Of a stretch of 64,000 bases of DNA, positions 35,640 to 49,341 are shown piece by piece. Where the stretch lies: the NCBI GenBank assembly GCA_964106915.2, contig OZ066926.1; one strand, written 5' to 3'. The position numbers were made by a program, and so were the translations under genes. Numbering within the stretch: the first letter of the stretch is position 1; every line of letters begins with the position of its first letter. The notes under the pieces are model-generated. The model ran no database searches. It was not told the DNA's origin and saw only the letters and a list, made by a program, of their open reading frames with translations. Origin of the DNA: Podarcis gaigeae. Lineage: Eukaryota.

Positions 35640-37165
35640 AGAATGGCACGGGCGGGGCGAGGGAAGCCTTCCATCTGCGTAACCTATCACGACTGACTCC
35701 ACCCCACCCAATATACACAGTGTTTCCCTGTTATTTGCCTCTCTACAGGCTTACCTATTCAAAGTCGACTACATACACCTTTTCCAGTTTTGTTCGAGGG
35801 AAAGGATCTCCTCCAGCGGAATGCCCTCGCGTCGACGGGAGAAGAAACCACATTACACTTGTACATGTAATCTCCCTCATTGTAATCACGACAGGCAACC
35901 CTCCCACCCCCACCCCACTTAGGGGAACTTGTCGCCCTCTTCTTCCGCGGTCAGTTTTCTTCTCTGGTGTCTGGTAGGCGAGGAAAGGGAATTTCCTTCA
36001 GCCTCATCTAGTCGCCTCCCTTCCCCCATTTAAAACCCTCCCAGGGGACACACAAACACCGCCCCATATCTTCGGCCACCGCTTTATCGCCCCTCCAGAT
36101 CTGGGATGTCCCCCCCCCCTTTCTTTTGAAAGGAGGAGGGAGAAACGAGAATAGGGGAAGGGAAATCTCCTTCGGTGAAATCTAACGCCCCCTCCCCACT
36201 GCCCCATTCATAACCGAACAAACCAGCCCTGCACCACCACCTTCCCTCTCCCCACCCCGGGAAACTTTGGGAAGGCCCAGCCGATGCTCCCTCCGCTCAC
36301 CTCAAACCGGCTCTTGGTGACTCCGTTCATTTCCCTCCTCATGGTGAAGGCCCTGCGGGGGTCGGCTCGGGTGAGAGCAGGCCAGGCCGAGCCGGGCCTG
36401 GCCCCCCCGGCTCCTGAACGGCGGCGTCAGCAGCGGCCGCCCGCTCAGCCCCGCGGCCTCCCTTCGCGCTGCGGGGCTGAAGGAGGCGCAGCAGGAGGCG
36501 GAAAGCCCGTCGTCGCCCGTCTGTCTCCCTAGACCAGCGGCGAGGGCCCGGGCGGCGTTAAGGCTCCTCAGCGGGTGCGGTTGAGGGAGGGGGGGGGTCG
36601 ACCGGCCGGAGCCCCCTCCGCCGACTAGGCCCACTCCAGAAGGGAGGGGGGAGCAAAGAGAAAGCGAGCGAGAGAGAGAGAGAGAGAGTTCGGCCTTCGT
36701 CAACTACAACTACTACTTCTTCTCCTTTACCCAAAACAAAAACACTCCGCACCTGCCAGCAACAGCGCCGCTCATTGGACGAGGGAGGCGCAGGCCGGGG
36801 AGGGGAAAGAGCACGGCCGGCGCGCGCCTCTGCGCGCGCGGGTGGTGGGAGGAGGAGCGAGTGCGCGCGCCCACCCCAGCTCCCGGGGACAAGGCGAAGA
36901 AGCCGGGAGGGTCCTGGTCTTCCTTTTCTCCCCGCCCCGCACCCCTCCTCAACTCTGGTCTGGGCAGGTGAAGCGACCGCCTCCCGCCGCCAACACTGAA
37001 CCTATGCACGTTTCAATGACGGTCGTCGCATCGCCGCGCAGGATTTCGGTTCCGATCCTACGCACGTGCGCGGCTCACGGGTGAAGCCGTTCGTCCCTAC
37101 CGAGCTCGGTGAGGCGTGTAGATATGTTTTCAACGCGCGCGCACTGGCACATTTCGGTTGCGCTC
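35640..37165. promoter_or_regulatory. FBXL20: CpG island / FBXL20 promoter and 5'UTR
   Basis: Only long GC- and CpG-dense tract in the window. CCAAT box on minus strand (36774-36778), GCGC-rich NRF1-like tracts (~36820-36870), palindromic CGCACGTGCG E-box (37061-37070), (GA)n at ~36670-36688. Boundaries approximate. Confidence 0.9.
36301..36342 (-). CDS. FBXL20: FBXL20 coding exon 1
   Basis: cacc ATG ... GAG|gtgagc, 42 nt, MRREMNGVTKSRFE (mammalian FBXL20 starts MRRDVNGVTKSRFE); inside the CpG island; phase 0 to exon 2. Confidence 0.95.
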
Positions 37166-37771
37166 AGCAGTGGGGACATGCTCCCAAGCAGCTCTTGTGA
37201 CTGGCATCCTTATTGATCTTAACGTTGTGCTGAATGGATCAACAAAAGGAGCTGCTTCTTCTTTGCCATCAGTTAAAATGCTTCAAACGCAGCTAAACCT
37301 TTTTTCTCTTTTTAATTTTCTCTACCTTTTCCTCTGGGTTGGAATTATTATTCCCTGGGGTGCCCCTTGCAGCAAGCTGTTTAGCTTCAGCATCCCATCA
37401 GGTGCCTTCAGATCATTCTCTTGAGCAACAAGATGAAAGCTTCCAGTTAATAAGATTTGGCTCCTTTATTCTTGGGGGGAGGATTAATTCCTGTGGCATG
37501 GTGTCTCATCCAGCTATTGTATATATTGAGGGGGGGGGGGGACACACACGACATTCTCTAACCAGGATAAGTAACTGCCTCACTCCCTTGAATCCAAATT
37601 CTGCCAAGATCTGATGGATTGGTAGATTGAGCGAGTTGTGGACCACCTGCACTCACTAGGTTGGCTTTCAGCAAGCCGATTATCCTATCAGCTTCACATT
37701 TTGGTGGGGGGGGGGGGTTGGAAATACATATATACAGGATGGTTGCCATATACTGGTAGTGATGATACAAG

Positions 37772-37939
37772 CAGTTTGACAGTGGAACGAACTGCTTTAA
37801 AAGGTGATGGATTCTCCTTCACTAGAGGCTTTAAAGCAGAGAATGGAAGACTAGCTACTGGGGTGCAACAGCAGAGGATTTCTGCAAAAGCAAGGGGTTG
37901 GACTAAGGTTACCTTTGAGGTCCCTTCCATATATTCTTA
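37772..37939 (+). mobile_element. CR1 LINE 3' end
   Basis: QWNEL..VMDSPSLEAFKQR remnant; GGGGTTGGACTA..GAGGTCCCTTCCA terminal hairpin. Confidence 0.75.
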
Positions 37940-38228
37940 CTAATTTACTGTACAAGGGCTATTGTAAGGATTACTGAAAGGACTGCGCGTGAAACTGCAT
38001 GTACTGGAAAACCTGAAATTACACTGTATAAATGTCAAGCATTCTTACTACTGTTAATTATTAAACAAAACTATTAAGCTTTTACTCCGATACCATGCAT
38101 TGAAAACGACCAAAACAATTAAATGATACTTTTGCCAGTTGTTTACTCAAACGGGAACAAAAGAAGTTGATTTAACATTTAGAAATTTATCTTATTTGTA
38201 TATGAACAATAAAGCTCTTCTACAAACC

Positions 38229-48213: not shown

Positions 48214-48405
48214 CTGGAAAGACAAAAGAGCTTGCTAGCAAAGGCCATGAGCTTAAAAAGTCATGTTCACCCTATAGATAAAATAAGGGAAAGAGAGAAA
48301 GATGTTCATACTTTTATTTGCAGCTCAGCTAAGACAGGGAAAAATAGTCAAAACAAAAAAAATTCCTTCCAGTAGCACCTTAAAGACCAACTAAGTTAGT
48401 TCTTG

Positions 48406-48443
48406 GTATGAGCTTTCGTGTGCATGCACACTTCTTCAGATAC
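48406..48443 (-). ncRNA. Minimal type I hammerhead ribozyme motif (sense to MED1 pre-mRNA)
   Basis: GUAU-CUGAAGA-A-GUGUG(CAUG)CACAC-GAAA-GC-UC^AUAC; all core boxes present, 4-bp stem I, rudimentary stem III. Confidence 0.65.
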
Positions 48444-48468
48444 ATCTGAAGAAGTGTGCATGTATCAT

Positions 48469-48506
48469 GTATCTGAAGAAGTGTGCATGCACACGAAAGC
48501 TCATAC
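48469..48506 (+). ncRNA. Minimal type I hammerhead ribozyme motif (mirror copy, antisense to MED1)
   Basis: Same sequence read on + strand: CTGAAGA 48473-48479, GAAA 48495-48498, TC^ 48501-48502. Confidence 0.65.
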
Positions 48507-49139
48507 CAAGAACTAACTTAGTTGGTCTTTAAGGTGCTACTGGAAGGAATTTTTTTTGTTTTGACTATGGCAGACCAACACGGCTACCTATCTGTAACAG
48601 GGAAAAATAGGTTAGGAAACATCTGATGGTGCATGGGTTGGGTAACAGCTACTCTAATCTTTTCAAAGTTTATGTTTATTATGTTAGCTGCTTCAAGTTT
48701 ACTCCGGAAGGAAGAGTCTTCTATTAATTTTAATAAAATAAATATTAGTTTGGTGCATTGTGGGCTTTGCCTGCTAACTGCCGTGTGAGCAGTTTGCTTT
48801 AGGGCCTGCTTTCTTTTTTATACTCTTGCTTAGTTTCCTTACTAACTGAATGGAAATCCTGAACTTGAACTTACTGGCTATCTGGTTCATGCCTCCTTAC
48901 ACTATTCAGAATTTTGATATGGTCAATAAATGCAAGGGTTGAGAAGCAACAACAGTACTAAGAGTACAAGTATTAACATACATAAATGGATAGAAAAACT
49001 GATCTTCCTAGGCAAGTGAAAAAGGAGTCAGCTGCTGTAGTGATTCAAACCTAACAACATCTGGAGAAGACTGACAAGATTATAGAGACCAATATGTTTT
49101 TAAAAATTCTTCAGGCAATGTACCATGGGTAGCACTCAC

Positions 49140-49341
49140 CTTCTTTTAAGACTGTTCGCTTGACACAGCTGCCTATCAGAGTGTTGTAGGCCACCTGATG
49201 CCTGATCAAATTGAGGATGAGAGGAACCCGACTAGGATGGTGGAAAGCAATTTTGCTGAGCAGAGTTCCCTGAAGACTTCGTCCATCTGGCAAGGGGGCA
49301 TCTTTGTTGAGGAAGTAGCAGTGCTGCTGACCTGGCAAAGC
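49140..49341 (-). CDS. MED1: MED1 exon 14
   Basis: 202 nt, ALPGQQHCYFLNKDAPLPDG...CVKRTVLKE, GT-AG. Confidence 0.97.

What the first reader, a model, noticed from the sequence alone, without database searches (positions are those of the whole stretch)
48334..48610. Twin hammerhead-ribozyme cassette locked in a perfect 102-bp hairpin inside MED1 intron 14
Seen: a 14-bp TSD encloses two exact inverted arms (48344-48445 and 48467-48568). Each arm holds GUAU-CUGAAGA-A-GUGUGCAUGCACAC-GAAA-GC-UC^AUAC, and the 21-nt spacer is a partial third copy. Stem II (GTGTGCATGCACAC) and the stem III remnant (AGCT) are self-complementary. Established: Penelope-like elements carry minimal hammerheads with palindromic stem III that work mainly as dimers. 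Inference: the MED1 pre-mRNA has a potential self-cleavage site (48410/48409) ~200 nt upstream of the exon 15 acceptor. The antisense arm is transcribed first and should sequester it as long dsRNA (ADAR/Dicer substrate), a built-in ribozyme off switch. Zero arm divergence and an intact TSD suggest a very young, possibly polymorphic insertion.
Basis: partly seen in the sequence, partly recalled or inferred. Interest (0 to 1): 0.75.

Follow-up and report, generated by a model that had tools for sequence, protein, structure and literature searches.

The report
Penelope retrotransposon hairpin stub in MED1
This mirror-image insert in a reptile MED1 intron is one of more than a thousand such stubs of a common jumping gene, likely made by copying one RNA end onto both strands of a cut, so its self-cutting RNA motif is likely a silent passenger and not an off switch for the gene.

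Summary
The sequence is as described: 14-bp TSD, exact 102-bp inverted arms, two minimal hammerhead motifs, MED1 intron 14. It is common here: 9,386 exact hammerhead 42-mers and 1,272 tight head-to-head hairpins against 1 control. Two related species have the empty site; both samples of this species carry the insert, so it is young, with no polymorphism seen. The duplex is predicted to bury the ribozyme (60 kcal/mol), but the two motifs lie on opposite strands and cannot form the required dimer in cis; nothing indicates regulation. The useful by-product is mechanistic: 25 of 26 sampled pairs have one tail, 25 of 25 share a 50:50 variant, and 5' ends pile up behind a TATA/Inr (3,236 at +4) and not at the scissile bond (65), pointing to twin priming on one uncleaved, capped RNA. 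The scan found this reading before in other genomes and once in this genome.

The parts
48334..48347 (+). Left target-site duplication (14 bp); last 4 nt also match the element end (microhomology)
   Evidence: D4; single copy at the empty site in organisms B and C
48344..48445 (-). Inverted, tail-less pLTR copy (element +3 to about +99/+103); reads as sense hammerhead in MED1 pre-mRNA
48406..48443 (-). Minimal type I hammerhead motif on the MED1 strand; predicted scissile bond 48410/48409
   Evidence: sequence; features as in PMC4209133
48444..48466 (+). Junction: snap-back copy of the left arm end (48444-48462, element +6 to +24) and a 7-nt duplication ATGTATC
   Evidence: I2, D2; sequence
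48467..48568 (+). Direct pLTR copy (element +3 onward), right arm of the hairpin; antisense in MED1 pre-mRNA
48469..48506 (+). Second minimal hammerhead motif (C17 at 48502)
48569..48596 (+). One-sided 28-nt PLE tail, between the two inferred reverse-transcription start sites
   Evidence: PMC8557442 and PMC11167929 describe such tails
48597..48610 (+). Right target-site duplication; first 2 nt also match the element continuation
48214..49140 (-). Host context: MED1 intron 14 (927 nt), between exon 14 (49341-49141) and exon 15 (48213-about 48119)

Best explanation
It is a recent, heavily 5'-truncated insertion of a Neptune-type Penelope-like retrotransposon, one of over a thousand similar hairpins in this genome, likely made when the element's enzyme nicked both strands 14 bp apart and copied the same short RNA end from both nicks, and its hammerheads are likely passengers that do not cut MED1 RNA. 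Shown: element identity, TSD, empty site in relatives, abundance, one-tail asymmetry, arm concordance, end positions. Inferred: the top-strand nick primed at about +99 to +103 (4-nt microhomology) and the bottom-strand nick at about +131 to +133 (2-nt microhomology); both cDNAs ran to the RNA 5' end just behind a TATA(-30)/Inr(+1) motif; the left cDNA folded back for 19 nt and the two ends were joined by microhomology. In MED1 pre-mRNA the arms are predicted to pair into a 102-bp duplex that prevents hammerhead folding; this is a side effect of the insertion geometry.
For: Arms continue in other copies into a GIY-YIG ORF and 500-720 aa frames with RT, CX4CX2C linker and GIY-YIG. 9,386 exact 42-mers, 15,119 exact downstream 31-mers, controls 0; 1,272 tight hairpins, control 1; 19 of the 30 best loci (own locus included) have a perfect inverted arm with differing junctions. 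In the first 100 copies on contig C1: 26 inverted pairs, 25 with exactly one tail (p 8e-7), 25 of 25 scored pairs share an A/G site that is 48:48 in the sample (p 3e-8), the tail-less arm reaches further 5' in 16, the tailed arm in 7, tie 2; the tail-less arm can be about 570 bp (L003) or about 1.8 kb (L115) while the tailed arm is 130-190 bp, so neither arm is a copy of the other. 5' ends: 37 of 100 at +1..+8, 2 at the scissile +38; genome-wide junction patterns 3,236 at +4, 65 at +38, 25 at +40, 31 at +36. Forcing the hammerhead fold in the pre-mRNA costs 60.3 kcal/mol. Literature: inverted copy plus one-sided tail (PMC8557442, PMC3846280); both strands cut and extended, two RT start sites, hammerhead dispensable, no RNA ends at the cut site (PMC11167929); monomer inactive (PMC4209133).
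Against: No RNA data for this species were laid, so the transcription start, cap, editing and cleavage are unobserved. +38 junctions are about twice the two neighbouring positions (65 vs 25 and 31), which leaves room for a small cleaved fraction; 27 of the 65 begin with AG (counted by eye), as expected from stem I microhomology with a partner arm, but their upstream context was not checked. The +4 and +38 patterns cover different parts of the pLTR, so the 50-fold ratio is approximate. Arm concordance could also come from conversion between arms or from two RNAs of one source locus. Arkhipova et al. (PMC3846280) explain such junctions by self-priming on an antisense template. One of 26 pairs had no tail on either arm.
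Confidence: 0.85

Rival explanations
1. One reading: a functional ribozyme off switch in MED1, in which the antisense arm holds a cleavage-competent hammerhead shut until editing or unwinding frees it.
For: Core nucleotides intact in both arms; antisense arm is transcribed first; stem I pairing probability about 1e-41 in the pre-mRNA.
Against: Same geometry at over 1,272 loci; absent in two relatives about 1% diverged in this intron; the isolated MED1-sense arm forms stem I with probability only 0.007; needs a same-sense partner that the transcript lacks; this class shows no monomer and low dimer cleavage (PMC4209133); catalytic G12 is A in 13-18% of family depth (48495), as for neutral CpG decay.
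Confidence: 0.03
2. Passive protection: no switch, but sense-strand solo copies in introns are occasionally cut in trans and purged, so hairpin forms are tolerated more often.
For: Thermodynamic burial; two isolated motifs are predicted to pair through their palindromes; slight excess of +38 junctions.
Against: No orientation data; template RNAs appear mostly uncut; hammerhead cleavage needed the element protein in PMC11167929.
Confidence: 0.1
3. Hairpins arise from one cDNA that snaps back on itself, or from self-priming on an antisense template, rather than from two primers.
For: Arm concordance 25 of 25; a 19-nt snap-back is visible in this junction; junctions often centre on the stem II or AGCT palindromes; proposed in PMC3846280.
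Against: Each arm usually holds sequence the other lacks (tail on one, further 5' reach on the other in 16 of 25; L003, L115), and both outer ends have target microhomology here.
Confidence: 0.15
4. A self-propagating fold-back element (MITE-like or retrozyme-like) that moves as a hairpin unit.
For: Inverted arms, TSD, high copy number.
Against: Central junctions and outer ends differ from copy to copy; one end always carries the PLE tail; no tandem same-sense units at this locus.
Confidence: 0.04
5. Assembly artefact.
For: No listed contig spans the whole hairpin.
Against: Contigs of two samples cross from unique flank into the antisense arm (to 48371/48370) and into the tail (from 48577/48574); relatives show the clean empty site with one TSD copy.
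Confidence: 0.01

Closest known systems
EN+ Penelope-like element insertions with an inverted 5'-truncated pLTR, one-sided 30-40 bp tail and TSD (Craig et al. 2021 PMC8557442 Fig. 2; Adineta Pen2a_Av, PMC3846280; passages read)
   Same: Head-to-head inverted pLTR copy, tail on one side only, TSD, palindromic junction, TATA plus Inr-like motif in the pLTR.
   Different: Here both arms are only about 100-130 bp with no ORF; tail 28 bp; squamate Neptune-type family.
[quoted passage not shown]
   Same: 4-bp helix I, extra nucleotide between 9 and 10.1, G10.1-C11.1, palindromic 15.2-16.2; that paper already reports dual motifs 100-700 bp apart on opposite strands.
   Different: Helix II is 6 bp with a 2-nt loop and N7 is A; this sequence has not been assayed.
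Poseidon element of Anolis carolinensis, PAc (Frangieh et al. 2024, PMC11167929; main text read)
   Same: Two RT start sites that bound the tail, both strands cut and extended, hammerhead not needed for insertion.
   Different: Poseidon clade; here the RT-EN linker has the Neptune/Nematis Zn-finger-like motif. The passages read do not analyse 5' ends or how inverted copies form.
L1 twin priming (recalled, no call)
   Same: Two target 3' ends prime cDNA on one RNA and give an inverted 5' part.
   Different: In L1 the second primer anneals far upstream so the parts do not overlap; here the two starts lie about 30 nt apart, so the products are inverted repeats.

Membership tests
EN+ Penelope-like element (Neptune type) | Single ORF with RT and C-terminal GIY-YIG upstream of the pLTR | tested here: met
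   In long copies of the family, not at this locus: RVT_1 E 9e-11 and GIY-YIG E 3e-5 in one 706-aa frame, followed by a 95-99% match to the arm
EN+ Penelope-like element (Neptune type) | CX2-5CxxC motif between RT and EN (Neptune and Nematis) | tested here: met
   CNKPRCQLC in all six long frames; definition from PMC8557442
EN+ Penelope-like element (Neptune type) | Placement in the Neptune clade by RT tree, or match to a Repbase/Dfam family | not tested
   No tree built; no repeat library among the tools
EN+ Penelope-like element (Neptune type) | Inverted 5'-truncated copy, one-sided tail, TSD | tested here: met
PLE minimal type I hammerhead | CUGANGA, GAAA and UH core; extra nt after A9; G10.1-C11.1; short helix I; palindromic helix III | tested here: met
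   sequence against PMC4209133
PLE minimal type I hammerhead | Self-cleavage as a dimer | not testable with these tools
   No assay; genomic 5' ends give at most a small signal at the scissile bond
Rfam hammerhead families | Match to a curated covariance model | tested here: not met
   No hammerhead family among 25 matches in 1.4 kb; 0 matches in the isolated arm
Host-domesticated intronic ribozyme | Conserved at the orthologous site across species | tested here: not met
   Empty site in organisms B and C
Non-LTR retrozyme | At least two consecutive same-sense units with complete hammerheads (10.64898/2026.07.22.740005, passage read) | tested here: not met
   Two motifs on opposite strands, third copy partial
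MITE-like fold-back element | Copies share fixed termini and interior | tested here: not met
   Junctions and ends differ among copies
miRNA precursor | Rfam match above gathering score | tested here: not met
   All matches below gathering and driven by the perfect stem

The most novel reading that the evidence does not exclude
The thousands of stubs are a genome-scale record of PLE integration: a dimeric enzyme primes from both target nicks at two start sites on one capped, uncleaved leader RNA transcribed from a TATA/Inr promoter in the pLTR, giving strong-stop-like cDNAs joined head to head, so PLE hammerheads do not process the template in vivo and the family seeds over a thousand perfect dsRNA hairpins into host transcription units.
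Probability: 0.6. Interest if true: 0.45.

Novelty: new member of a known kind. Interest (0 to 1): 0.2.

Why it matters
The locus itself is ordinary: a young intronic retrotransposon stub, useful at most as a species marker. The family statistics matter more: how PLEs make inverted copies and what their hammerhead does are open questions, and the counts here (one tail per pair, shared variants between arms, ends at a promoter and not at the cut site) give sharp predictions for the existing in vitro PAc system. If the off-switch reading were true it would be a new way for a transposon to regulate an essential coactivator gene, but the evidence puts that at a few percent.

Tried and rejected
Rfam: no hammerhead match; miRNA matches are below gathering score. 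Polymorphism: 4 of 23 listed runs were laid, on the intron only; only the longest pieces and best joints are shown (44,942 pieces and 412 joints not shown), and one of the two same-species samples may be the assembly's source. One search had an off-by-one error in the stem I and cut-site numbers; these were redone and only the dimer energy is taken. The 130-bp query favours copies whose junction mimics this one, so end statistics use the downstream 31-mer sample instead: the first 100 of 15,119 matches, all in 5.3 Mb of one contig; three 5' ends were limited by locus or reference edges. The upstream context of the 65 junctions at +38 was not examined, so the microhomology account of the AG class stays untested. 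The paper on dimeric PLE hammerhead variants that I recalled was not held. Searches for twin priming in PLEs (Penelope, twin priming, inverted, 2 papers; five terms from 2022, 3 papers; listings only) showed no paper devoted to it; subscription journals and supplements were not seen. Searches were seen as listings, apart from the papers named as read. No other copy of the element was found in the window.

Full report
Observation. The coordinates are exact. A 14-bp direct repeat (48334-48347, 48597-48610) brackets two 102-nt fully complementary arms 21 nt apart; the RNA hairpin has z = -25.7 against shuffles. Each arm carries GUAU-CUGAAGA-A-GUGUGCAUGCACAC-GAAA-GC-UC-AUAC, on opposite strands. 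The host gene is MED1 on the minus strand (96% identical over 450 aa to two snake proteins; I take the host to be a squamate). Mapping turtle and chicken MED1 gave exons 2-17 at 62544-42749; the short first coding exon was not mapped and is assumed. The insert is in the 927-nt intron 14, and C17 lies at 48410, 195 nt before the exon 15 acceptor.

Identity. The right arm plus that stretch has at least six other 100% identical copies among 40 scored hits. In one copy the inverted arm runs on into a GIY-YIG coding end; six long copies hold 503-720 aa frames with RT, a CX4CX2C linker and GIY-YIG, followed by the same pLTR. This is an endonuclease-bearing Penelope-like element with the linker that marks Neptune and Nematis (PMC8557442, passages); no tree was built. 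Inverted 5'-truncated copies with a 30-40 bp tail on one side are described as typical (PMC8557442; PMC3846280, passages), and dual minimal hammerheads on opposite strands 100-700 bp apart were noted in 2014 (PMC4209133, parts 1-2 of 4 read). The motif has the listed features of that class. Rfam does not detect it.

Abundance. Exact 42-mer of the hammerhead: 9,386; exact downstream 31-mer: 15,119; controls 0. Head-to-head motif pairs with a 2-15 nt gap: 1,272, control 1. Of the 30 best loci, 19 have a perfect inverted arm and 26 gave an 8-15 bp edge repeat. Junctions differ from copy to copy, so hairpins are made anew at each insertion.

Age. Contigs of organisms B and C run from 48333 straight to 48597, with one TSD copy and 5-6 substitutions in about 646 flanking bases; contigs of both samples of organism A enter the insert from each flank. 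So the insertion postdates a split of about 1% intron divergence. No empty allele appears among the listed pieces for A, and the flank contigs run unbroken across the TSD, which suggests homozygosity (inference; two samples, one possibly the assembly's source). No contig spans the whole hairpin, but both ends are seen independently, so an assembly artefact is unlikely.

Mechanism. In the first 100 copies of contig C1 3' ends fall in two groups, tailed (51) and tail-less (49, about +82 to +102), matching the two RT start sites shown in vitro for the anole element, which cuts and extends both strands (PMC11167929, parts 1-2 of 4 read). Fifty-two copies form 26 inverted pairs; 25 have exactly one tail, and 25 of 25 scored pairs agree at an A/G site that is 48:48 in the sample. 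The tail-less arm reaches further 5' in 16 of 25, the tailed arm in 7, so neither arm is simply a copy of the other. The simplest reading is two primers on one RNA (inferred). At this locus both outer ends have microhomology with the target (4 and 2 nt). 5' ends cluster at +1..+8 (37 of 100; 37 of 72 within +1..+52, p 1e-12), where +1 is the A of TCAGT, 30 nt behind TATATAG (reading these as TATA and Inr is my own knowledge, and similar motifs are noted in PMC3846280; Drosophila Penelope has a TATA-less internal promoter, PMC2377424, passages). Genome-wide, junctions at +4 number 3,236, and 73 of the 100 listed have a non-element G just before (by eye; 7 of 10), as a copied cap would give (inferred). 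Junctions at the scissile bond number 65, against 25 and 31 at two neighbours. Against my reading: that is a twofold local excess; 27 of the 65 start with AG, which stem I microhomology with a partner arm would explain, but this was not checked. Here both arms match the element from +3; the spacer is a 19-nt snap-back of the left arm plus a 7-nt duplication.

The off switch. In MED1 pre-mRNA the antisense arm comes first, and the hammerhead fold costs 60.3 kcal/mol; stem I probability is about 1e-41 in context but also only 0.007 in the isolated MED1-sense arm. The class needs a same-sense partner, shows no monomer cleavage and low dimer cleavage (PMC4209133), and in PAc cut only with protein, with no RNA-seq ends at the site (PMC11167929). 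The pre-mRNA has one sense motif. Catalytic G12 is replaced by A in 13-18% of family depth in the two samples of A. Sequestration is therefore a likely physical fact with nothing to switch. Editing or dicing is plausible for a 102-bp duplex but untested (no RNA holder listed).

Earlier notes. After reaching this reading (notes) I found eight follow-ups in other genomes and one in this genome with much the same conclusion. Two of them see ends at the cleavage site, which prompted; in this genome that class is small. They are not independent support.

Verdict. Real, young, and a new member of a known kind. Interest 0.2; the family-level twin-priming and uncleaved-template reading has probability about 0.6 and would merit 0.45.

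Noticed in passing
L113:4480-4520 and many copies: The pLTR has TATATAG exactly 30 nt before the A of TTTCAGT, directly in front of hammerhead stem I; 5' truncations pile up there.
   Followed up: partly
L086/L087, L128, L120, L122: Many hairpins turn around exactly on the hammerhead's own palindromes (stem II 14-mer, or AGCT), so these may serve as joining microhomologies for the two cDNAs.
   Followed up: partly
window 48495 and 48502: Across the family, catalytic G12 reads A in 12-18% and C17 reads T in 6-11% of contig depth in the four runs.
   Followed up: no
L005:1501-1786, L018, L138: Partial tandems in which the tail continues into further element sequence and then restarts at the hammerhead 5' edge; candidates for same-sense dimers.
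   Followed up: no
G000:C28:17907653-17909812 (L111), C21:32661490-32663607 (L112): Open frames of 720 and 706 aa with RT and GIY-YIG; both appear 5'-truncated. No full-length copy was located.
   Followed up: partly
window 36001-38000: GC-rich island (57%) downstream of MED1, probably the promoter of the neighbouring gene; not identified.
   Followed up: no
window 48809-48813 and 49020: Organisms B and C have 5-nt and 19-nt insertions in intron 14 relative to the window.
   Followed up: no
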